Part shown: positions 1-12,691 of the stretch, in pieces | Numbering within the stretch: position 1 is the stretch's first letter | Layout of the letters: every line of letters begins with the position of its first letter | IMG/VR virus record: IMGVR_UViG_2859783438_000002 | Direction: 5' to 3' (one strand) | DNA length: 41,185 nt | From: a virus | Taxonomy: Duplodnaviria; Heunggongvirae; Uroviricota; Caudoviricetes | The notes under the pieces: model-generated | What the model saw: only the letters and a program-made list of their open reading frames with translations | What the model was told of the DNA's origin: nothing | The model's database searches: none | Program-made: the position numbers and the translations under genes

Positions 1-603
1 TCATTCAGTATCATCACGCGCGGTCTGTGCATATGTCACTACCGCACCTAATGTATTAATTTTCTTTTCAACATAGATAATATTATCGTACTCATAATTG
101 CCATACGGATAGCAAATGCGAATATTCTCATGTAGATCGGGGTCATCCACCTCAGCTCCAGAACAACTTTTTGAACTACCGGAAGTATACCGATACGGTG
201 CAACATAAGACGATGTCTCTCCAGGCAAAAAATAAGTTAGTGTTGTAAGGGGTATAATCAGAAAAAATCCAGAAAATATGCATATCCCTGCATAAACCTT
301 AAGGTATGCTGACAGACTCTTCCAGCCGCTTTGTTTTACTATCCCCTTCTTAACCCAAAACAGAGATAACAGAAAAGCTATTCCCATGCTAAACAGAATG
401 TAATAGTGGGATATACTCTGATTAAGAAACGTGACCCTGTAGATATCTGCCCGCCACCAGAAGAAAAGGAAAATAAAGATCAGCCCTGAAACTGTCATGC
501 AAATCAAATAAGGATACGAATCTTTTTTCATGTTTAGCGCCCATAAAATTTTTCCTGCCCCGGACAAATTTATCATCCATTTTTTGCACAGAAAATAGCT
601 CAT
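1..603 (-). CDS. Hypothetical integral membrane protein (200 aa, about 4 hydrophobic helices, soluble C-terminal tail); AT-rich
   Basis: Complete ORF; stop codon is bases 1-3 (tca = TGA on minus strand). Hydrophobic segments visible in translation. No family recognised. Confidence 0.4.
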   Translation of the reverse strand: MSYFLCKKWMINLSGAGKILWALNMKKDSYPYLICMTVSGLIFIFLFFWWRADIYRVTFLNQSISHYYILFSMGIAFLLSLFWVKKGIVKQSGWKSLSAYLKVYAGICIFSGFFLIIPLTTLTYFLPGETSSYVAPYRYTSGSSKSCSGAEVDDPDLHENIRICYPYGNYEYDNIIYVEKKINTLGAVVTYAQTARDDTE

Positions 604-844
604 TACTTACTGCACAATAATACACAAAATTGCGTAAATTTTTTGCATGGATTTTAGCTCTTTCAGCCGACGTTTAAGGGGTAAAGAGCATTTCCTAAAA
701 GCAACTGACCAACCCAACAGAATGGGCTACCGCTTACGTTGAGAGCAAAAAAGTGTATAGCAGCAATGAACAGCATCCTCGCACTGACGGGGATTTCTTT
801 TATCTGAGCTCGCTACGGCGAGTTTTGTTTTATGGAGACAAGAA

Positions 845-1189
845 ATGTCAGATTTGGCTATGAAGGTTTTGAAATGGCAATCAACTGGCGATGTCGGCAT
901 CAGTAGCGCAACTCTTGCCTCAATCGCATGTGGCCTGAAAAAGAATATCTATGGTCATCACTTCGGCGCTCCCCATGACGCAGCAGACTTTCGGCGATGC
1001 GTTGCACTTGTTGAGCAGATTCCAGAAATCAGAGATTCATTCGACAAGGTTGCAAAGCGCGTTCCGGCATTCAAAGGAATCCTCAACGAATGGGATTCAC
1101 TCGTTGCTCTGTTGAAGTCTGAAATGAAGACGTACGGGAACAAAGCACCAGAGACTTACAGAAGAATCAGCGAGCTACGCAAGGACTAA
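845..1189 (+). CDS. Hypothetical prophage/island protein (114 aa)
   Basis: ATG at 845 preceded by GGAGA; sits directly upstream of the TorI-like gene. No family recognised. Confidence 0.45.
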   Translation: MSDLAMKVLKWQSTGDVGISSATLASIACGLKKNIYGHHFGAPHDAADFRRCVALVEQIPEIRDSFDKVAKRVPAFKGILNEWDSLVALLKSEMKTYGNKAPETYRRISELRKD

Positions 1190-1311
1190 CCCGCCTCACA
1201 CTCGATGAGGCCTGTTCATTTCTCAAGATATCCAGACCTACCATTGCTGCATCAATGCGGCTTTTTATTGCCTGATTTGCAGGTTCGATTCCATATTCGG
1301 AGATAGCACTC

Positions 1312-1512
1312 ATGCAACACGAACTACAACCTGATTCACTGGTTGATTTGAAATTCATCATGGCTGATACTGGCTTCGGTAAGACCTTCATCTATGACCG
1401 GATTAAGTCCGGCGACCTGCCTAAAGCCAAAGTTATCCACGGACGAGCAAGATGGTTATATCGTGACCATTGTGAATTCAAAAATAAGCTCTTAAGCCGC
1501 GCCAATGGGTAA
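1312..1512 (+). CDS. torI: TorI/AlpA-family excisionase-like DNA-binding protein (66 aa)
   Basis: 66-aa ORF with HTH-like segment (FGKTFIYDRIKSGDLP), GGAGA RBS. Size and context (argW 3'-end att copy downstream, csc/dsd-type locus beyond) match torI of KplE1/CPS-53. Confidence 0.55.
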   Translation: MQHELQPDSLVDLKFIMADTGFGKTFIYDRIKSGDLPKAKVIHGRARWLYRDHCEFKNKLLSRANG

Positions 1513-1578
1513 AATAGCGGGTAAAATATTTTTCAAATCTAAAAAACAGCATTCCAATCAATCCCCTGCCGCCTCAAG

Positions 1579-1600
1579 TAGATGTCTGCAGGGGACACCA
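1579..1600 (+). other. att core-like copy of the 3' end of tRNA-Arg argW (CTGCAGGGGACACCA exact, imperfect upstream)
   Basis: 15-nt exact match to the argW 3' terminus as I recall it, with partial identity extending 5'; located just downstream of the torI-like gene as expected for attR. Confidence 0.45.
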
Positions 1601-2040
1601 GATACCCTTCAAACGAAATCTACCTTCACCCCGTAAAAGATGGGTTTGGCAGCACACTTGCCTTATATCTACTCATTTTTACTGCAACAGGTTGAAATCT
1701 CAGCACTGTCAGAAAGCGCTGATGACTAAACAGCCCTGGGCCGGGCGATGTAACCATCACACAGAATCCTGATAGCGAAATATGGCGTGACTCGATACTT
1801 CACTCCGCAATGCATTCCTTGATGAATTCGCAGGACCGTGATACACGGGACAGGTCGCTGAATGACGACAATGTCCTGGAAATCAGCGAACCGCGCATCT
1901 GAAGTACATTTGAGCGACTGTACCAGAACATGAATGAGGCGTTTGGATTAGGTGATTATTAGCCGGGCTAAGCACTTTAGTATTATTATTTTCCGGTTGA
2001 GGGATAGGGAGATATCGACAACAACCGGAAAAGTTTACGT

Positions 2041-3288
2041 CTATATTGCTGAAGGTACAGGCGTTTCCATAACTATTTGCTCGCGTTTTTTACTCAGGAA
2101 GAAAATGCCAAATAGCAACATTAGGCAGACAATACCCGAAATTGCGAAGAAAACTGTCTGGTAGCCTGCGTGGTCAAAGAGTATCCCAGTCGGCGTTGAA
2201 AGCAGCACAATCCCAAGCGAACTGGCAATTTGAAAACCAATCAGAAAGATCGTCGACGACAGGCGCTTATCAAAATTTGCCACGCTGTATTTGAAGACGG
2301 ATATGACACAAAGTGGAACCTCAATGGCATGTAACAGCTTCACTAATGAAATAATCCAGGGGTTAACGAACAGCGCGCAGGAAAGGATACGCAACGCCAT
2401 AATCACAACACCGATAAGTAATGCATTTTTTGGCCCTACCCGATTCACAAAGAAAGGAATAATCGCCATGCATAGCGCTTCGAGTACCACCTGGAATGAG
2501 TTGAGATAACCATACAGGCGCGTTCCTACATCGTGTGATTCGAATAAACCTGCATAAAAGACAGGAAAAAGTTGTTGATCAAAAATGTTATAGAAAGACC
2601 ACGTCCCCACAATAAATATGACGAAAACCCAGAAGTTTCGATCCTTGAAAACTGCGATAAAATCCTCTTTTTTTACCCCTCCCGCATCCGCCGCTACGCA
2701 CTGGTGATCCTTATCTTTAAAACACATGTTGATCATCATAAATACAGCGCCAAATAGCGAGACCAACCAGAAGTTGATATGGGGACTGATACTAAAAAAT
2801 ATGCCGGCAAAGAACGCGCCAATAGCATAGCCAAAAGATCCCCAGGCGCGCGCTGTTCCATATTCGAAATGAAAATTTCGCGCCATTTTTTCGGTGAAGC
2901 TGTCAAGCAAACCGCATCCCGCCAGATACCCCAGGCCAAAAAAGAGCGCTCCCAGAATTAGACCTACAGAAAAATTGCTTTGCAGTAACGGTTCATAAAC
3001 GTAAATCATAAACGGTCCGGTCAAGACCAGGATGAAACTCATACACCAGATGAGCGGTTTCTTCAGACCGAGTTTATCCTGAACGATGCCGTAGAACATC
3101 ATAAATAGAATGCTGGTAAACTGGTTGACCGAATAAAGTGTACCTAATTCCGTCCCTGTCAACCCTAGATGTCCTTTCAGCCAAATAGCGTATAACGACC
3201 ACCACAGCGACCAGGAAATAAAAAAGAGAAATGAGTAACTGGATGCAAAACGATAGTACGCATTTCTGAATGGAATATTCAGTGCCAT
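2041..3288 (-). CDS. cscB: LacY-family oligosaccharide:H+ symporter, sucrose permease CscB-like (415 aa)
   Basis: 12-TM MFS protein with LacY-family motifs (e.g. NFWVFVIFIVGTWSFYNIFDQQ); 415 aa matches CscB; PfkB-kinase 3' remnant (cscK) immediately upstream; argW att copy nearby. Confidence 0.6.
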   Translation of the reverse strand: MALNIPFRNAYYRFASSYSFLFFISWSLWWSLYAIWLKGHLGLTGTELGTLYSVNQFTSILFMMFYGIVQDKLGLKKPLIWCMSFILVLTGPFMIYVYEPLLQSNFSVGLILGALFFGLGYLAGCGLLDSFTEKMARNFHFEYGTARAWGSFGYAIGAFFAGIFFSISPHINFWLVSLFGAVFMMINMCFKDKDHQCVAADAGGVKKEDFIAVFKDRNFWVFVIFIVGTWSFYNIFDQQLFPVFYAGLFESHDVGTRLYGYLNSFQVVLEALCMAIIPFFVNRVGPKNALLIGVVIMALRILSCALFVNPWIISLVKLLHAIEVPLCVISVFKYSVANFDKRLSSTIFLIGFQIASSLGIVLLSTPTGILFDHAGYQTVFFAISGIVCLMLLFGIFFLSKKREQIVMETPVPSAI

Positions 3289-3359
3289 AATTACCTACCT
3301 GTCGTTAAAAAATTCACGTCCTATTTAGAGATAAGAGCGACTTCGCCGTTTACTTCTCA

Positions 3360-3420
3360 CTATTCCAGTTCTTGTCGACATGGCAGCGCTGTCATTGCCC
3401 CTTTCGCCGTTACTGCAAGC
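3360..3420 (-). pseudogene. cscK: 3'-terminal remnant of PfkB-family fructokinase gene (cscK-like), truncated by IS1
   Basis: Minus-strand frame reads ...LAVTAKGAMTALPCRQELE* ending at 3360; this is a typical PfkB/ribokinase-family C-terminus. Reading frame is cut by the IS1 end at 3422. Confidence 0.45.
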
Positions 3421-3674
3421 GGGTAATGACTCCAACTTATTGATAGTGTTTTATGTTCAGATAATGCCCGATGACTTTGTCATGCAGCTCCACCGATTTT
3501 GAGAACGACAGCGACTTCCGTCCCAGCCGTGTCAGGTGCTGCCTCAGATTCAGGTTATGCCGCTCAATTCGCTGCGTATATCGCTTGCTGATTACGTGCA
3601 GCTTTCCCTTCAGGCGGGATTCATACAGCGGCCAGCCATCCGTCATCCATATCACCACGTCAAAGGGTGACAGC

Positions 3675-3774
3675 NNNNNNNNNNNNNNNNNNNNNNNNNN
3701 NNNNNNNNNNNNNNNNNNNNNNNNNNNNNNNNNNNNNNNNNNNNNNNNNNNNNNNNNNNNNNNNNNNNNNNNNN
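3675..3774. other. Assembly/scaffold gap (100 N) inside IS1
   Basis: Run of exactly 100 N. Confidence 0.99.
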
Positions 3775-3912
3775 TAAAAGTCCTCTCTGCTCAGCATGTT
3801 GATGTCCTTTCTGGTGTGAGAACCTTAAGGAAACAACATGTTGGGTGGAGCGGACAATCCAAATGGCGAATTACCGTCTTATATCACTGGCGCTGACAAT
3901 ATCAATGATTTT

Positions 3913-4140
3913 CTGGTGCGTACCGGGTTGAGAAGCGGTGTAAGTGAACTGCAGTTGCCATGTTTTACGGCAGTGAGAGCAGAGATAGCGCTGATGTCCG
4001 GCAGTGCTTTTGCCGTTACGCACCATCTGGTGCGTACCGGGTTGAGAAGCGGTGTAAGTGAACTGCAGTTGCCATGTTTTACGGCAGTGAGAGCAGAGAT
4101 AGCGCTGATGTCCGGCAGTGCTTTTGCCGTTACGCACCAC
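3913..4140. repeat. Tandem direct duplication, 2 x 114 bp, within IS1 insA
   Basis: 3913-4026 and 4027-4140 are identical except the last base; yields the duplicated peptide seen in the InsA-like ORF. Confidence 0.8.
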
Positions 4141-4350
4141 CCCGTCAGTAGCTGAACAGGAGGGACAGCTGATAGAAACAGAAGCCACTGGAGCACCTCA
4201 AAAACACCATCATACACTAAATCAGTAAGTTGGCAGCATCACCGAAGTGGTAAAGAAGATAATAAAGAATAATATTTAGGGTTATAGGTCTTAGCCCATT
4301 TTAAATGGAAGGCAGACATGCAGCCATGCATACTTCGCATGGCAACATAA

Positions 4351-4779
4351 TTATTTAGACAAACTATCTAATTTTTGCGTCGCTTTTTGTGTTAGGTCGC
4401 TGTAACTGATAAACCCTACGTTAGCACCTACAATTAACACTAAGAACACTAAGCTGCATATGGATAGAGTGGCAGATTTATGCTTATGGAAAACAAAATA
4501 TGCTACTATTGCACTTAATATGAAGGAAATGAATAGAAATATAGATGTTGATGTTTTTAGATATTTTTCAGGAAATAATGGGTGAGCAATAATGTATACA
4601 AGATTAAGTAGTATATAAATTGCTACCGGAATGAAAATCATGCTCCAGTGTGTATCTTTTTTGGGAGGGATTGGCTGCAAATAATCAGACACCGTTTTTC
4701 CATCAGTTTCAAGAAGAATTACTAGATCTCTTACTTCACCACTGACTTGAGTGCCATCCTTAGTAGTAATGTTAATCAT
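4351..4779 (-). CDS. Hypothetical membrane protein (142 aa): N-terminal soluble ~50 aa, then about 3 TM helices
   Basis: Start MINITTKDG at 4779 with GGAGGG 7 nt upstream. Hydrophobic segments IFIPVAIYILLNLVYII, IFLFISFILSAIVAYFVF, ICSLVFLVLIVGANVGFI. Confidence 0.5.
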   Translation of the reverse strand: MINITTKDGTQVSGEVRDLVILLETDGKTVSDYLQPIPPKKDTHWSMIFIPVAIYILLNLVYIIAHPLFPEKYLKTSTSIFLFISFILSAIVAYFVFHKHKSATLSICSLVFLVLIVGANVGFISYSDLTQKATQKLDSLSK

Positions 4780-5153
4780 TTTTTCCCTCCAAATACGATG
4801 CCCTCTACGTCTTTGGAAGCTTTTTGTGATGACCACTCCTCTGAATCAGGTGATTTAATTAAAAATATTGTATCTCCATCAAAAATCGTATTTGTTCCGT
4901 AAAAATTCACATTTGATAGATCACCACCAAAAACCCTCTGCCCACTCGAGGTAATTGCCTCACCTAATTTAGTAAAATTACCAGCAATAGATGATTTTCT
5001 TTTTCCACTTCTATTCAAAGTGGCTTTAATTACACCACCACCATCCTTAGAGTTAAATAATTGAATGTCCACTCCAGCAGTTGGTTGTATATATTTTGAA
5101 AGCTCTTTCTTGAACTTGTTAATATATTTATCTTTGTTTTCTTTGTTGGTCAT
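4776..5153 (-). CDS. Hypothetical soluble Gly/Lys/Ser-rich protein (125 aa), first gene of a coupled pair
   Basis: ORF in AT-rich DNA; its last codons GGA GGG AAA AAA form the Shine-Dalgarno for the downstream gene; stop overlaps next start (ATGA). Confidence 0.5.
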   Translation of the reverse strand: MTNKENKDKYINKFKKELSKYIQPTAGVDIQLFNSKDGGGVIKATLNRSGKRKSSIAGNFTKLGEAITSSGQRVFGGDLSNVNFYGTNTIFDGDTIFLIKSPDSEEWSSQKASKDVEGIVFGGKK

Positions 5154-5417
5154 TGGTTAGATCCATAGTTCTGGCTGTGATTAGGTGAAAGTATACAAGG
5201 TTTTTAAAGCGAAGATCACTGTTTTGGCTTCAAGATAGTTTTGATTTATCGTAATCAATCCGCCATAATCCTCTCATCGGAGCCTGAACAACTCCGGTGA
5301 CTTCTGCGCATTTAAGGGGACTTAAATGCGACCACAATCTGAACTCATCACCTTGTCACAGATGCAGAAATGCACCTGCGATTTTCTGCATTCTGCGGTT
5401 TCCGTTAGGGAGGCCGT

Positions 5418-5873
5418 ATGACTCTGCCAGTAGACGGCATCAAACTCCATCGCGGTAACTTCGCGGCCATCGGCCAGCAGATTCAGCCATTGCTGGATGC
5501 CGGGCAATGCTTACGCCTGCAGGTTAAGCCGTGGCGCGAGAAGCGCAGCCTGTCGCAGAACGCGCTCAGCCACATGTGGTACACGGAGATCAGCGAATAT
5601 CTCATCGCCCGCGGCAAGACCTTCGCTACGCCTGAGTGGGTCAAAGACGCGATGAAGCACACCTATCTCGGCTACGAAAGCAAAGACCGTGTAGATGTCG
5701 TGTCCGGCGAGGTCACCACCGTCCAATCCCTCCGCCATACGTCAGAGCTGGAAACCGGCGAGATGTACATCTTCCTGTGCAAAGTCGAAGCCTGGGCGAT
5801 GAATATCGGCTGCCACCTGACAATTCCGCAGAGCTGTGAATACCAGCAGCTGCGCGATAAGCAGGAGGCGTAA
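5418..5873 (+). CDS. ybcN: NinB-family protein (DLP12 YbcN-like, 151 aa)
   Basis: GGGAGG RBS; length and sequence pattern similar to lambda NinB and K-12 YbcN; followed by ninE, ybcO, rusA in canonical nin order. Confidence 0.65.
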   Translation: MTLPVDGIKLHRGNFAAIGQQIQPLLDAGQCLRLQVKPWREKRSLSQNALSHMWYTEISEYLIARGKTFATPEWVKDAMKHTYLGYESKDRVDVVSGEVTTVQSLRHTSELETGEMYIFLCKVEAWAMNIGCHLTIPQSCEYQQLRDKQEA

Positions 5874-6043
5874 TGGCTACACCGCTTATTCGTGTCATGA
5901 ACGGGCACATCTACAGAGTATCAAATCGTCGTAAGCGTAAGCCTGAGCTGAAGCCATCCGAAATACCAACACTGCTCGGATATACCGCTAGCCTGGTTGA
6001 TAAAAAATGGTTGCGACTGGCAGCAAGGAGGAATCATGGCTGA
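5873..6043 (+). CDS. ninE: NinE-family small protein (56 aa)
   Basis: ORF below the 60-aa track cutoff, found by hand translation (MATPLIRVMNGHIYRVSNRRKRKPE...). Start overlaps ybcN stop (TAATG); basic region typical of NinE. Confidence 0.55.
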   Translation: MATPLIRVMNGHIYRVSNRRKRKPELKPSEIPTLLGYTASLVDKKWLRLAARRNHG

Positions 6044-6326
6044 TTTGAGAAAAGCAGCGCGTGGTCGGGAATGCCAGGTAAGAATCCCTGGCGTATGTAA
6101 TGGCAATCCTGAAACGTCAGTACTGGCACATATCCGGCTGGCTGGATTGTGCGGTACCGGTATCAAACCGCCAGACCTGATTGCCACCATTGCATGTTCT
6201 GCCTGTCACGACGAAATCGACCGCCGCACATATTTTGTCGATGCTGAGTATGCAAAAGAATGCGCGCTGGAAGGTATGGCGAGAACGCAGGTTATCTGGC
6301 TGAAAGAGGGGGTTATTAAGGCGTGA
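6036..6326 (+). CDS. ybcO: YbcO-like nin-region protein (96 aa, DUF1364-type, Cys-rich putative nuclease)
   Basis: Start [14 protein letters not shown]; overlaps ninE end and rusA start; Cys motifs. Confidence 0.6.
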
Positions 6327-6685
6327 ATACCTACAGCATCACATTACCCTGGCCTCCGAGCAATAACCGCTATTACCGCCATAATCGCGGGCGCACACAC
6401 ATCAGCGCAGAAGGGCAGGCATACCGCGATAACGTCACCCGAATCATTAAAAACGCAATGCTGGATATCGGCCTGGCTATGCCAGTGAAAATCCGTATTG
6501 AGTGCCACATGCCGGATCGCCGTCGCCGTGACCTGGATAATCTGCAAAAAGCCGCTTTTGACGCACTCACCAAAGCAGGTTTCTGGCTGGATGATGCTCA
6601 GGTCGTTGATTACCGCGTTGTGAAGATGCCTGTTACCAAAGGTGGGAGGCTGGAACTGACCATCACCGAAATGGGGAATGAATGA
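6323..6685 (+). CDS. rusA: Holliday-junction resolvase RusA (120 aa)
   Basis: Near-identical to my recall of E. coli RusA ([26 protein letters not shown]...TITEMGNE). Confidence 0.9.
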
Positions 6686-6822
6686 TGTTTGAGTTTTATA
6701 TGGCAGAACTTCTTCGCCACCGCTGGGGGCATCTGCGCTTATATCGTTTCCCCGGTTCTGTTTTGACCGATTACCGAATACTGAAGAATTACGCCAAAAC
6801 CCTGACAGGAGCAGGAGTATGA
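6682..6822 (+). CDS. ylcG: YlcG-like small protein (46 aa)
   Basis: Hand-translated [46 protein letters not shown]; start overlaps rusA stop (ATGA); position as in DLP12. Confidence 0.5.
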
Positions 6823-6907
6823 AGTCAGAGATAACAATCAACTAATACTGTTTTGTTGATTTTTGCTTGTAATTGGCGTTCTGGTCTGATTTTTGTGGAG
6901 TAAGTTG

Positions 6908-7291
6908 ATGCGTGATATTCAGATGGTTCTTGAGCGTTGGGGAGCGTGGGCGGCTAATAATCATGAAGATGTGACCTGGTCGTCCATTGCCGCCGGTTTT
7001 AAGGGATTAATTACTTCAAAAGTAAAATCTCGCCCGCAATGTTGTGACGATGACGCGATGATTATTTGCGGGTGCATGGCCCGTCTGAAAAAGAACAACA
7101 GCGATTTGCACGATTTATTAGTAGATTATTATGTAGTCGGTATGACATTCATGTCACTGGCAGGTAAGCATTGCTGCTCTGATGGTTATATCGGGAAAAG
7201 GTTACAGAAGGCTGAGGGCATAATTGAAGGGATGTTAATGGCATTAGATATCCGGTTAGAGATGGATATCGTTGTTAATAACTCTAATTAA
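6908..7291 (+). CDS. quuD: Late-gene antiterminator Q (DLP12 QuuD-like, 127 aa)
   Basis: Start [18 protein letters not shown] with GGAG RBS; matches recalled QuuD; position after rusA/ylcG. Confidence 0.75.
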
Positions 7292-7324
7292 TATGCCAAT
7301 TGTTTACTAAAAATTATTAAAAAT

Positions 7325-7342
7325 GGGGCGTTGCAACGCCCC
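7325..7342 (-). terminator. GC hairpin (GGGGCGTTGCAACGCCCC) with T-run on the minus strand; probable terminator downstream of nmpC
   Basis: Perfect palindrome; minus-strand read is followed by ATTTTTAATAA. Confidence 0.4.
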
Positions 7343-7479
7343 CAAAAATAAAGGGTAATATATAACAGAAGGTTTATATAGTTAGAAGCAAGGTTGTGCT
7401 CCTAAAGGAAGTGGCTTGAGGGAGCCACTTATATGTTGGGGAGGCAAAGCCTCCCGCAACATATCTTTTAGTAATCAAA

Positions 7480-8562
7480 TTAGAACTGGTAAACCATACC
7501 TACAGCAACGATATCATCGGTAGCAACGCCAGATGCTTTCGTGAAATCGCTCTTATCAATCAGGTTGATTTTGTAATCAACAAAAGTGGACATATTTTTG
7601 TTGAAGTAATAGGTTGCACCTACATCAATATATTCAACCAGGTCCTGATCACCCCACGCACCCAAGTCTTTTCCTTTAGATTGCAGGTAAGCAACGGACG
7701 GACGCAGACCGAAGTCGAACTGATATTGTGCAACTACTTCGAAGTTTTGTGCTTTGTTGGCAATATGGTTATTACCAAAAACAGTCATGTTCTGGGTTTC
7801 AGAATAGGTGGTAGCCAGATAGATGTTGTTCGCATCATATTTCAGACCAGCTGCCCATACTTCAGCATTTTGACCAGATGCATTCAGGCTGTTGTTACCG
7901 TAGATAACCTGATTATTAGTGCGGTCAGATTTAGCATAGGTTGCACCTACACCGAATCCTTCATACTCATAAGTAGTGGAGAAACCGAAACCATCACCAT
8001 TAGCTTCAGTTACGTCAGTGCGGTCATTTTTACCCTGATACTGAGCAGCAAAGTTCAGACCATCAACCAGACCAAAGAAGTCGTTGTTACGATAAGTTGC
8101 AACACCAGTGGTGCGACCAGTCATGAACACATCTGTTTGAGTCCAAGTGTCACCACCGAATTCTGGCAGGACGTCAGTCCACGCACCGATGTCGTATGCT
8201 ACACCGTAGTTACGGCCGTAATCGATGGAGCCGTAGTCACCGAATTTCAGGCCAGCGAAGGCAAGACGGGTTTTATCTTTGGAGGAACCTTGAGATTCAG
8301 CGCGGTTGCCTTTGAATTCATATTCCCACTGACCGAAACCAGTCAGTTGATCGTTGATTTGGGTTTCACCTTTGAAGCCAAGACGGGCATAAGTAGTATC
8401 ACCATCATCTGCATCATTAGAGGAGAAGTAGTGCTTAGCATTAACTTTCCCGTACAGATCCAGCTTGTTACTGTCTTTATTATAAATTTCAGCTGCCTGA
8501 GCAGACATCGCCATCAGTACTGATGCAGCTACAGCAGAAATTGCCACTGTTAATTTTTTCAT
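7480..8562 (-). CDS. nmpC: Outer-membrane general porin NmpC/OmpD-like, apparently intact, with signal peptide
   Basis: Start [23 protein letters not shown] (signal peptide), C-terminal ...VGMVYQF typical of OmpC/OmpF-family porins; location between Q and lysis genes as in DLP12. Confidence 0.85.
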
Positions 8563-8952
8563 CGTGAGCCCTTTTTTTGAACTATTATTAAAAAATGATG
8601 TCACTGCGCGATAAATATTCATCTAATCAATGTGATTATTTCAAGATGTAAGTTTTGGTTTCTCGTTTGATTTGTGAAGTAGATCTCTATTTTTATCTGA
8701 ACTTTTTTCTATCGAATCCTATTCATGGCTCTTGGCTGAATAAAAATAAATCTATTAGCCAATTTATATTAACGGCTGTTATTTATAAGTGCTCTATAAT
8801 TTGAAGGTTCAATTTAAACCGGCTAAAAATAACACTGGAAATTATTTGTTGGTTATTTGTTGGGATTTGCTTATGTATTTGTAGTGGTGTTTTCAATACT
8901 CGGTAGCATTCTCGCAAATATCATTTAGTGGTTTACGTACGTAAAAAATTGG

Positions 8953-9416
8953 GGTAATGACTCCAACTTATTGATAGTGTTTTATGTTCAGATAATGCCC
9001 GATGACTTTGTCATGCAGCTCCACCGATTTTGAGAACGACAGCGACTTCCGTCCCAGCCGTGCCAAGTGCTGCCTCAGATTCAGGTTATGCCGCTCAATT
9101 CGCTGCGTATATCGCTTGCTGATTACGTGCAGCTTTCCCTTCAGGCGGGATTCATACAGCGGCCAGCCATCCGTCATCCATATCACCACGTCAAAGGGTG
9201 ACAGCCGTACCGGGTTGAGAAGCGGTGTAAGTGAACTGCAGTTGCCATGTTTTACGGCAGTGAGAGCAGAGATAGCGCTGATGTCCGGCAGTGCTTTTGC
9301 CGTTACGCACCACCCCGTCAGTAGCTGAACAGGAGGGACAGCTGATAGAAACAGAAGCCACTGGAGCACCTCAAAAACACCATCATACACTAAATCAGTA
9401 AGTTGGCAGCATCACC
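8953..9416 (-). mobile_element. insAB: IS1 copy lacking about 320 bp of its interior, flanked by 8-bp direct repeats AAAATTGG
   Basis: Both IS1 termini present; internal junction ...caaagggtgacagc|cgtaccgggttg; flanks 8945-8952 and 9417-9424 are identical (target-site duplication). Confidence 0.8.
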
Positions 9417-9461
9417 AAAATTGGTTATGCTGTTAAGAGTGGTTACTTCGTCACACAGCTT

Positions 9462-9486
9462 AAACCCGCCGTCGAGCGGGTTTTTC
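9462..9486 (+). terminator. Rho-independent terminator-like hairpin plus T-run upstream of the holin gene (tR'-like position)
   Basis: AAACCCGC-CGTCGA-GCGGGTTT followed by TTTTCC. Confidence 0.45.
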
Positions 9487-9606
9487 CATTTTTTGAGTCT
9501 CGATATTAGCTGATAACCCAATACCTGAGTTATTCACTGACTCCGAGTCTGTTACGTTTCGTAGTATTCCCTCAATTTACACCCGCTTTGTCTGCGAGGT
9601 GGGGTT

Positions 9607-12150: not shown

Positions 12151-12691
12151 TAGACTGGCCCCCTGAATCTCCAGACAACCAGTATCACTTAAATAAGTGA
12201 TAGTCTTAATACTAGTTTTTAGACTAGTCATTGGAGTACAGATGATTGATGTCTTAGGGCCGGAGAAACGCAGACGGCGTACCACACAGGAAAAGATCGC
12301 AATTGTTCAGCAGAGCTTTGAACCGGGGATGACGGTCTCCCTCGTTGCCCGGCAACATGGTGTAGCAGCCAGCCAGTTATTTCTCTNNNNNNNNNNNNNN
12401 NNNNNNNNNNNNNNNNNNNNNNNNNNNNNNNNNNNNNNNNNNNNNNNNNNNNNNNNNNNNNNNNNNNNNNNNNNNNNNNNNNNNNNAAACGATAAAGCGT
12501 GACTACATCAGTATCATGCCCAAACCAGACGGGTTAACGGCAGCAAAGAACCTTGCAGAGGCGTTCGAGCATTATAACGAATGGCATCCGCATAGTGCGC
12601 TGGGTTATCGCTCGCCACGGGAATATCTGCGGCAGCGGGCTTGTAATGGGTTAAGTGATAACAGATGTCTGGAAATATAGGGGCAAATCCA
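12151..12691 (+). mobile_element. insCD: IS2 (ends intact, interior replaced by a 100-N gap) flanked by 5-bp target-site duplication ATCGT
   Basis: Left end TAGACTGGCCCCCTGAATCTCC, InsC N-terminus [18 protein letters not shown] from 12242, InsD C-terminus ...[29 protein letters not shown] at 12146-12150 and 12692-12696. Confidence 0.85.
12387..12486. other. Assembly/scaffold gap (100 N) inside IS2
   Basis: Run of exactly 100 N. Confidence 0.99.

What the first reader, a model, noticed from the sequence alone, without database searches (positions are those of the whole stretch)
4351..5153. AT-rich, translationally coupled two-gene cassette of unknown function at the prophage left edge (candidate defence or exclusion module)
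Two minus-strand genes with overlapping stop/start (ATGA at 4776-4779) and the second gene's Shine-Dalgarno (GGAGGG) encoded by the first gene's last codons. Gene 1 gives a 125-aa Gly/Lys/Ser-rich soluble protein; gene 2 a 142-aa protein with a soluble N-terminal domain and about 3 TM helices. Base composition is clearly more AT-rich than the flanking prophage DNA, suggesting separate acquisition. It lies divergent from the nin region, between IS1 and ybcN, a position where lambdoid prophages often carry lysogen-expressed morons. I recognise neither protein. A small soluble partner plus a small membrane effector is an architecture seen in abortive-infection and superinfection-exclusion systems, but that is inference only.
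Basis: inference. Interest (0 to 1): 0.6.

Follow-up and report, generated by a model that had tools for sequence, protein, structure and literature searches.

The report
Uncharacterised soluble-plus-membrane prophage gene pair
Two small overlapping genes in a defective lambda-like prophage, one for a cytoplasmic protein and one for a three-helix membrane protein, are an uncharacterised pair that is conserved together across distant bacteria and usually sits beside known anti-phage systems or inside prophages, so it is a good but untested candidate for a new phage-defence module.

Summary
On the minus strand, g1 (5153..4776, 125 aa) and g2 (4779..4351, 142 aa) overlap in ATGA. A GGAGGG Shine-Dalgarno for g2 lies inside g1. 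GC is 0.34 against 0.50 for the adjoining nin genes. Both genes are under strong purifying selection (dN/dS 0.08-0.13).

In intact relatives the pair lies between the replication genes and the nin region of mosaic lambdoid prophages, antisense to the early-right operon. Here IS1 has removed everything to its left.

Neither protein matches Pfam, NCBIfam, PADLOC 2.0.0 or PDB sequences. Both match only PHROGs of unknown function.

A full-library profile search shows that g1 belongs to a wider family of about 125-aa proteins (111 representatives). In all 24 distinct distant loci where the downstream gene could be read, a small g2-like three-helix membrane gene follows. It overlaps or abuts g1 in nearly all of them, and one copy is frameshifted.

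These distant pairs lie next to Gabija, type I restriction-modification genes, a DUF262+HEPN pair and an AbiJ-like gene. Others lie in or beside Mu-like prophages or on a conjugative element. One g1 domain is fused to an HNH nuclease.

The best reading is a new two-gene defence, abortive-infection or exclusion module. No phenotype is shown and the structure models were poor.

The parts
4776..5153 (-). g1: 125-aa cytoplasmic protein with no signal peptide, PHROG 18061. It belongs to a broad uncharacterised family of about 125 aa. Conserved positions are Y10, G39, F84-x-G86-T87-N88, K100 (invariant), W107 and D115.
   Evidence: dN/dS 0.08-0.09
4351..4779 (-). g2: 142-aa inner-membrane protein, PHROG 16940. 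It has a soluble N-domain of about 40 aa, three TM helices, a basic HKHK loop between TM2 and TM3, a G118-x3-G122 motif in TM3 and a short C-terminal tail. The N-in/C-out topology is inferred from the positive-inside rule.
   Evidence: dN/dS 0.08-0.13
4776..4779 (-). ATGA stop/start overlap that couples translation of g2 to g1
   Evidence: The same overlapping or abutting junction occurs in nearly all of the distant loci.
4785..4790 (-). Shine-Dalgarno GGAGGG for g2, inside the last codons of g1, 5 nt before the ATG
   Evidence: direct reading
5190..5219 (-). Candidate weak sigma-70 promoter for the pair: GTGATC-N18-TATACT. It aligns with TAGACC...TGaTATAGT in Klebsiella-type loci. This is inferred only, and the consensus scan did not call it.
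   Evidence: not found
4318..4348 (-). Stable hairpin (core GCCAUGC/GCAUGGC) starting a few nt after the g2 stop, in the convergent gap between g2 and P. It is a likely terminator region for both strands. No clean U-tract follows it.
   Evidence: z -2.7 and -2.5; a + strand terminator-like site at 4279-4297
4243..4272 (+). Last 30 nt of lambdoid replication gene P. This is all that remains of the prophage's left arm and marks the native left neighbour of the cassette.
3422..4242 (.). IS1 copy that truncates the prophage immediately left of the cassette. It contains an N run and a 114-bp tandem duplication.
   Evidence: (H1)
5418..5873 (+). ybcN, the first gene of the nin region. It is the divergent right neighbour of the cassette.

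Best explanation
g1 and g2 form one self-contained accessory operon. The prophage carries it as cargo, transcribed from its own promoter against the direction of the phage early-right operon.

Its most likely role is protection of the host, and therefore of the prophage, against other phages by an abortive-infection or exclusion mechanism acting at the inner membrane.

Proposed working, all inferred:
- Coupled translation produces g1 and g2 together.
- Cytoplasmic g1 binds the cytoplasmic N-terminal domain of g2.
- g1 acts as the sensing or regulating subunit and g2 as the effector.
- On a phage cue, g2 oligomerises through its small-residue TM3 motif and compromises the membrane, or blocks a membrane step of infection.

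Shown here:
- Both genes are real and under selection.
- They are always found together.
- They travel as cargo of prophages, defence islands and a conjugative element.
- They are absent from the libraries of known families that I could search.

Not shown: any phenotype, any interaction, the topology, or the trigger.
For: (1) The pair and its junction are conserved in every locus examined.
- This holds for the enteric prophages.
- It holds for metagenome loci L002-L010.
- It holds for genomes of Desulfobacterota, Gamma- and Betaproteobacteria, L018-L027.
- It holds for the loci with N-extended g1 forms, L032-L035.

(2) The neighbours are defence genes or mobile elements.
- GajA (E 2e-283) and GajB (2e-207) are directly adjacent in L025.
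- HsdM and HsdS are directly upstream in L018, with an AAA_15 fragment downstream.
- A NsnA / PD-T4-2_A-like GmrSD_N protein plus a HEPN protein follow directly in L023.
- An AbiJ_NTD4 / PDC-S32 gene lies next to the pair in L020, where Mu-type transposase and phage-like genes lie nearby.
- A Mu-type transposase and an S24 repressor-like gene lie next to the pair in L027.
- PIN and DUF4160/DUF2442 genes are nearby in L003.
- Peptidase_C14 and DUF4238 genes are nearby on an ICE in L034.

(3) The enteric form always occupies one variable cargo slot of mosaic lambdoid prophages, in antisense orientation.

(4) P0104 fuses a g1-like domain to an HNH nuclease (Pfam E 1e-12). It was seen in two samples. 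This fits g1 being a module that partners with toxic effectors.

(5) g2 is a small three-TM protein with a conserved GxxxG-like TM3 and basic cytoplasmic loops.

(6) Selection is strongly purifying and GC is low, as expected for acquired cargo.
Against: - There is no experimental phenotype.
- PADLOC 2.0.0 gives no hit for g1, for g2, for 81 g1 relatives or for 10 g2 relatives.
- Guilt by association rests on about two dozen loci that were not chosen at random. No enrichment statistic was computed.
- Several loci have uninformative or metabolic neighbours (L008, L009, L021, L026).
- The structure models are poor and no fold match is significant. Neither a sensor role for g1 nor a pore role for g2 therefore has structural support.
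- The HNH fusion is a single protein.
- No promoter was confidently identified.
- No isolated phage genome or plasmid carries the pair.
Confidence: 0.45

Rival explanations
1. It is a toxin-antitoxin or addiction module. g2 is a small membrane toxin and g1 is its upstream, translationally coupled protein antitoxin. The main role is to stabilise the mobile element, and any phage defence is secondary.
For: - The gene order (neutraliser first, toxin second), the overlapping stop/start and the small sizes fit TA operons.
- The pair lies among TA-like genes in L003 and L018.
- In Thiohalobacter, g2 is frameshifted while g1 is intact. That is the expected order of decay if g2 is the toxic partner.
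- It is carried on prophages and an ICE.
Against: - g1 has no recognisable DNA-binding or antitoxin domain.
- No TA family model matches either protein.
- The HNH fusion puts g1 in cis with a toxic domain, which suits a regulator or sensor better than a labile antitoxin.
- n = 1 for the decay argument.
Confidence: 0.2
2. The roles are reversed, as in Kiwa. g2 is a membrane sensor of phage adsorption or DNA entry, and g1 is the released or activated soluble effector that acts on phage nucleic acid or proteins.
For: - g1 of the window is basic (pI 9.5).
- The g1 domain is fused to a DNA nuclease in P0104, where it could serve as a targeting domain.
- g2 has a short periplasmic loop and tail that could sense envelope events.
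Against: - The basic character is not conserved. A quarter of the family has pI below 6.5.
- g1 has few conserved polar residues and no enzyme-like motif.
- There is no match to KwaA or KwaB models in PADLOC.
Confidence: 0.12
3. It gives non-abortive superinfection exclusion. The g1-g2 complex at the inner membrane blocks genome injection of incoming phages, in the manner of P22 SieA, HK97 gp15 or T4 Imm.
For: - The pair is a prophage moron oriented for expression in the lysogen.
- g2 is a small inner-membrane protein.
Against: - Known exclusion proteins of this type work as single membrane proteins (established knowledge). Here a cytoplasmic partner is strictly co-conserved.
- Many family members are not in prophages but in chromosomal defence islands.
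Confidence: 0.1
4. It is cargo unrelated to conflict, for example a small membrane transporter or stress-response pair. One source names g2 a 'VIT1/CCC1 family Fe2+/Mn2+ transporter'.
For: - Automatic names come from one source.
- Some loci have only metabolic or transport neighbours, such as L008 and L026.
- The same slot in K-12 carries emrE, an efflux pump.
Against: - There is no Pfam or NCBIfam support for VIT1, PrsW or any transporter family. The best hits are sub-threshold generic TM matches.
- Three TM helices and 142 aa are small for a transporter.
- The neighbours are repeatedly defence genes and mobile elements.
Confidence: 0.08

Closest known systems
Lambda RexA/RexB (prophage-encoded abortive infection: a cytoplasmic sensor plus a small polytopic membrane effector)
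   Same: It is a two-gene prophage cargo expressed in the lysogen. It pairs one soluble protein with one small (about 140 aa) multi-pass inner-membrane protein. It is carried by lambdoid prophages.
   Different: There is no sequence match in PADLOC, which holds defence models. From established knowledge, RexA is about 279 aa against 125 aa for g1, RexB has four TM helices against three, and rexAB lies in the immunity region co-transcribed with cI. This pair lies between the replication and nin regions. The resemblance is one of working principle and not of family membership.
Kiwa (KwaA membrane protein plus KwaB soluble protein)
   Same: It is a two-gene system with a membrane and a soluble partner, found in defence islands.
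   Different: There is no match to Kiwa models. From established knowledge, KwaB is a large DUF4868 protein and KwaA has four TM helices. The order and sizes differ.
Mycobacteriophage Butters gp30/gp31 and similar prophage-mediated two-component defences
   Same: A soluble protein and a membrane protein are encoded together as prophage cargo and proposed to act together against heterotypic phages (recalled from the literature, not tested here).
   Different: The hosts and phages are unrelated. No homology was tested or expected, and the membrane partner has a different number of TM helices.
PHROG families 18061 and 16940 (unknown function)
   Same: g1 and g2 match these families end to end (E 9e-85 and 2e-96), so they are members.
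   Different: These families carry no functional annotation. They capture only the enteric prophage clade, not the wider family found.
Type II toxin-antitoxin operons
   Same: Both are small, overlapping, two-gene operons on mobile elements.
   Different: The putative toxin is a membrane protein. The upstream protein has no DNA-binding antitoxin domain. No TA family matches.

Membership tests
PHROG 18061 / 16940 | Full-length profile match | tested here: met
   g1 gives E 9.3e-85 over 1-125 of 125. g2 gives E 2.3e-96 over 1-142 of 142. Both families have unknown function.
Known or candidate defence systems in PADLOC-DB 2.0.0 (including RexAB, Kiwa, PD-T4/PD-lambda and PDC candidates) | Match of either protein to any system-component HMM | tested here: not met
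   There are 0 families for g1 and g2. Only four isolated matches with E above 0.002 appear among 81 g1 relatives. Only one appears among 10 g2 relatives, at E 0.029.
RexAB | RexA-like sensor of about 280 aa and a four-TM RexB, in the immunity region next to the repressor | tested here: not met
   g1 is 125 aa and g2 has three predicted TM helices. The pair lies between P and ybcN, about 2.7 kb from the repressor gene.
Anti-phage defence system (general) | Genomic association with known defence genes or mobile elements | tested here: met
   The pair is adjacent to Gabija, type I RM, a GmrSD_N+HEPN pair and an AbiJ-like gene. It also lies in or beside prophages and an ICE. This is qualitative, and no enrichment statistic was computed.
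Anti-phage defence system (general) | Reduces phage infection when expressed | not testable with these tools
   This needs a phage challenge of a strain carrying 4300-5420.
Type II toxin-antitoxin | Antitoxin with a DNA-binding fold, and a toxin belonging to a known toxin superfamily | tested here: not met
   There are no Pfam or NCBIfam domains in g1. g2 gives only sub-threshold generic TM hits.
Toxin-antitoxin (functional sense) | One partner is toxic alone and is neutralised by the other | not testable with these tools
   The only hint is a frameshifted g2 with an intact g1 in Thiohalobacter.
Holin / antiholin lysis pair | Lies in the late lysis cassette with the endolysin and is transcribed with the late genes | tested here: not met
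   The lysis cassette (essD-rrrD-rz) is elsewhere and on the other strand. Many homologous pairs are outside prophages.
VIT1/CCC1 transporter or PrsW protease (names given by one source) | Pfam match to the family | tested here: not met
   No such family appears among the Pfam hits at E up to 1. The names appear only as automatic JGI labels.

The most novel reading that the evidence does not exclude
The pair founds a previously unnamed, phylogenetically broad anti-phage system, found in Gamma- and Betaproteobacteria, Desulfobacterota and probably Bacteroidota. Its roughly 125-aa g1 domain would be a new kind of phage-sensing or regulatory module that can be coupled to different effectors: a three-TM membrane protein in most cases and an HNH nuclease in at least one. 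The enteric clade would have been captured by lambdoid prophages as lysogen-protective cargo.
Probability: 0.35. Interest if true: 0.7.

Novelty: new variant of a known kind. Interest (0 to 1): 0.55.

Why it matters
If the pair protects against phages, it adds a compact system of about 800 bp with two unclassified protein families to the defence repertoire. It is present in E. coli, Shigella, Klebsiella and Enterobacter prophages, which matters for phage therapy and phage typing of these pathogens. It is also present in environmental bacteria next to Gabija and restriction systems.

It would also mark the replication-nin junction of lambdoid prophages as a defence-cargo slot worth mining. The same slot carries emrE in K-12 and a colicin-like pair elsewhere.

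The g1 domain's single fusion to an HNH nuclease suggests a reusable sensor or regulator domain. Its trigger could be found quickly through escape mutants.

Tried and rejected
- Domain libraries. Pfam, NCBIfam and PADLOC gave nothing above threshold on both proteins. Pfam and PADLOC also gave nothing on 81 g1 relatives, nor PADLOC on 10 g2 relatives.
- PDB by sequence profile. Only spurious hits with E above 0.06 appeared.
- AlphaFold2. Both runs used the shallow enteric alignments, because they were made before the wider family was found.
- Fold searches.
  - Foldseek against BFVD gave nothing at E <= 0.001 for either model.
  - afdb50 was unavailable.
  - I therefore draw no fold assignment. 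A resemblance of the a-b-b-a-b-b-a order to chaperone-like or roadblock-like folds was considered and dropped as unsupported.
- The search for related loci. The 81-sequence alignment was too diverse. A 13-sequence sub-alignment worked for genomes but found nothing in IMG/VR.
- Isolated phages and plasmids. Megablast to the phage collection, and tblastn of g1 (phages, plasmids) and g2 (phages), found no match.
- Literature.
  - Accession numbers, UniProt ids and PHROG ids gave 0 papers.
  - The supplements of the DefensePredictor paper do not list the RefSeq accessions.
  - Brenes & Laub 2025 on E. coli prophage defences is not held. Prior characterisation cannot be excluded.
- Rfam on 3000-9500. 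Nothing was found in the cassette.
- Promoter scan. It called no minus-strand promoter upstream of g1.
- DNA-binding role for g1 on the basis of pI. Rejected, because pI is not conserved in the family.

Full report
**1. What is in the sequence**

On the minus strand there are two ORFs.
- g1 runs 5153..4776 and encodes 125 aa.
- g2 runs 4779..4351 and encodes 142 aa.

The g2 ATG (4779-4777) overlaps the g1 TGA (4778-4776), giving ATGA. GGAGGG at 4790-4785 lies 5 nt upstream of that ATG, within g1's last codons. RefSeq annotates the same two proteins, at 125 and 142 aa, in E. coli A7.

The proteins have these properties:
- g1 is hydrophilic (GRAVY -0.62), basic (pI 9.5) and rich in Lys, Gly and Ser.
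- g2 is hydrophobic (GRAVY +0.57).
- g2 has a soluble N-terminal region of about 40 residues and three predicted helices at 44-68, 71-100 and 103-141.

GC is 0.339 over the cassette, 0.501 for the adjoining nin genes and 0.511 for the whole window.

**2. Are these real genes?**

Yes. Against Klebsiella- and Enterobacter-type homologues with 66-76% protein identity, synonymous sites are saturated (dS 1.0-2.8). dN/dS is 0.08-0.09 for g1 and 0.08-0.13 for g2.

The exact proteins are seen on at least 1000 contigs and are named from Shigella sonnei, E. coli and Enterobacter. The cassette occurs in 72 of 5,426 complete E. coli genomes, always on the chromosome and once per genome.

**3. Native position**

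In the intact prophage of E. coli A7, integrated at argU like DLP12, the gene order is as follows: repressor, cro-like gene, ydaT-like gene, O, P, then g2 and g1 on the opposite strand, then ybcN, ninE, ybcO, rusA, ylcG, quuD, porin gene, lysis genes.

In the window, IS1 (about 3422-4242) has replaced everything left of the last 30 nt of P (4243-4272). It joins the prophage remnant to cscB. That junction is absent from all complete E. coli genomes. 'Prophage left edge' therefore describes the truncation, not the native layout.

Klebsiella/Enterobacter-type prophages have different replication modules (DnaB-type, DnaC-type or O/P), nin genes and lysis genes. Even so, the pair always sits at the same junction, between the replication module and the first nin gene (DUF1367, YbcN or NinB), and always antisense.

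The slot is variable.
- K-12 DLP12 carries emrE-ylcJ-ybcK-ybcL-ybcM-ylcH there.
- One prophage has a colicin-like pore-former and an immunity gene beside the pair (L016).

This is the behaviour of a moron. The antisense orientation implies an own promoter and expression in the lysogen, which is inference. Alignment of upstream regions suggests a weak GTGATC-N18-TATACT promoter at 5219-5190. It aligns with TAGACC...TGaTATAGT in the Klebsiella type. The consensus scan did not call it.

A stable hairpin at 4348-4318 follows the g2 stop, in the convergent gap with P.

**4. Identity of the proteins**

Neither protein matches Pfam, NCBIfam or PADLOC-DB 2.0.0. Both match PHROGs of unknown function end to end, 18061 and 16940.

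Word-indexed searches find only Enterobacteriaceae relatives. A full-library profile search with the g1 alignment found 111 representatives at E <= 1e-3, and 30 at E <= 1e-10. Nearly all are 120-135 aa and matched end to end.

Their alignment shows these conserved positions:
- an N-terminal Y..N.FR..L..LKP..G motif;
- a GA..EF hairpin;
- a C-terminal Q..F.G.L...F.GTN...E.NRI.LIK(G/D)....W....A..D motif;
- K100, which is invariant.

None of the 81 aligned members hits Pfam or PADLOC. The profile finds nothing in the PDB.

The AF2 models were poor, because I ran them on the shallow enteric alignments before finding the wider family.
- g1: pLDDT 58.5, secondary-structure order a-b-b-a-b-b-a.
- g2: pLDDT 67.7, a small N-terminal hairpin plus helix, then three long helices.

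**5. The pair is conserved as a pair**

Every distant g1 homologue whose downstream DNA was available is followed by a gene of 117-211 aa. It has a soluble N-terminal region, two to three detectable hydrophobic helices, a basic KFK/KYK-type loop and a (G/A)xG...(S/T)P end to TM3. It overlaps or abuts g1 in nearly every locus.

- Metagenome loci L002-L010.
- Genomes or MAGs of Thermodesulfobacteriota, Desulfocapsaceae, Thiohalobacter (g2 frameshifted), Rheinheimera, Oceanospirillum, Pseudomonas, Glaciimonas, Catenovulum and Photobacterium.
- Loci with N-terminally extended g1 forms. Two of these have Por_Secre_tail neighbours, which suggests Bacteroidota.

Alignment shows that these downstream proteins are homologous to g2.

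Positive charges cluster before TM1 and between TM2 and TM3. This predicts an N-in/C-out topology, with the N-domain in the cytoplasm where g1 is. That is inference.

**6. Neighbourhoods**

Immediate neighbours of the distant pairs include the following:
- GajA and GajB, a full Gabija system (E 2e-283 and 2e-207), in Glaciimonas.
- HsdM-HsdS directly upstream, and an AAA_15 fragment plus a DUF433-like ORF downstream, in L018.
- A GmrSD_N protein (NsnA / PD-T4-2_A-like, E 8e-56) plus a HEPN protein, in Oceanospirillum.
- An AbiJ_NTD4-DUF7014 protein (PDC-S32), with a Mu-type transposase and phage-like genes nearby, in L020.
- The S24-repressor and MuA-like transposase genes, the end of a Mu-like element, in Photobacterium.
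- Probable phage tail genes in Pseudomonas, judged from their sequence only because Pfam gave no hit.
- PIN and DUF4160/DUF2442 genes in L003.
- A caspase-like Peptidase_C14 and a DUF4238 gene on an ICE with TrwC and TraG, in L034.
- A 545-aa protein with a GHKL-ATPase-like motif, on an element with Phage_rep_O, in L032.

A few loci have uninformative neighbours (L008, L009, L021, L026).

No isolated phage genome (50,697 records) or plasmid (72,556 records) carries a detectable homologue. IMG/VR holds 18 contigs with the enteric form (L036-L053) and none with the environmental clade.

**7. A domain fusion**

P0104 (447 aa) has a g1-like domain at residues 7-119, followed by an HNH nuclease domain (Pfam E 1.3e-12) and a C-terminal region. 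It was seen in two sequencing runs. This is a single case. It fits a modular logic in which the g1 domain partners with toxic effectors.

**8. Interpretation**

The best-supported reading is a mobile two-gene conflict module.

I favour a defence function of the abortive-infection or exclusion type. In this model g1 is the cytoplasmic sensing or regulating partner, bound to the N-domain of g2. g2 is a membrane-acting effector. I give this a confidence of about 0.45 as stated.

The rivals are:
- a toxin-antitoxin addiction module (0.2);
- reversed roles as in Kiwa (0.12);
- an injection-blocking exclusion complex (0.1);
- non-conflict cargo (0.08).

The automatic names 'VIT1/CCC1 transporter' and 'PrsW' have no profile support.

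**9. Comparison with known systems**

In working principle it resembles lambda RexAB: a prophage-borne soluble protein plus a small polytopic membrane protein. It fails membership on size, number of TM helices, genomic position and sequence. The same applies to Kiwa and to type II TA families.

It is a member only of two PHROGs of unknown function.

I could not exclude that a screen from 2024-2026 has already named it. Accession and identifier searches found no paper. The DefensePredictor supplements do not list it. The most relevant paper, Brenes & Laub 2025, is not held.

**10. Verdict**

This is a real, well-defined and unexplained feature. I rate interest at 0.55 and novelty as a new variant of a known kind.

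Noticed in passing
window 3422-4242: The IS1 copy that truncates the prophage contains a perfect 114-bp tandem duplication (3912-4025 = 4026-4139), which duplicates part of insA. It also contains a run of 100 N (3675-3774). A second N run lies at 12387-12486. The duplication may be an assembly or masking artefact.
   Followed up: partly
window 1-4242: The sucrose permease gene cscB (2041-3288, minus strand) is joined by IS1 directly to the prophage remnant. This junction is found in none of 5,426 complete E. coli genomes. The exact g1 and g2 proteins are named from Shigella sonnei among others, so the window is probably from an IS1-rich Shigella/E. coli lineage with an IS1-mediated rearrangement.
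   Followed up: partly
window 7480-8622: An intact 380-aa OmpC/NmpC-type porin gene lies on the minus strand between the Q antiterminator gene and the lysis genes. The K-12 DLP12 copy (nmpC) is split by IS5.
   Followed up: no
L016:5297-6980: In one prophage the same replication-nin slot also holds a colicin-like pore-former (377 aa, weak PF01024) and a divergent colicin-immunity-like gene (weak PF03857), next to the g1-g2 pair. This suggests the slot collects conflict cargo.
   Followed up: no
P0104 (L029:246-1589, L030:246-1589): A 447-aa protein fuses a g1-like domain to an HNH endonuclease domain and an unassigned C-terminal region of about 210 aa. It was seen in two sequencing runs, on contigs too short to give context.
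   Followed up: partly
L001:6919-8567: In the intact E. coli A7 prophage, a DUF4411 protein and an ImmA/IrrE metallopeptidase pair sit next to the repressor gene. This is another likely accessory module of the same prophage.
   Followed up: no
L021:8387-8768: In Thiohalobacter thiocyanaticus the g2 homologue is split by a frameshift, while g1 is intact.
   Followed up: no
window 9398-9489: A weak Rfam Trp_leader match (28.8 bits against a gathering score of 41, E 0.009) lies upstream of the lysis genes. It is probably a chance match to a terminator-like leader near the late promoter.
   Followed up: no
L032:258-1895: A 545-aa gene with a GHKL-ATPase-like motif (..DNGCGM..) lies directly upstream of an N-terminally extended g1 and a three-TM gene, on a contig that also carries Phage_rep_O. 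This may be a three-gene variant of the module.
   Followed up: no
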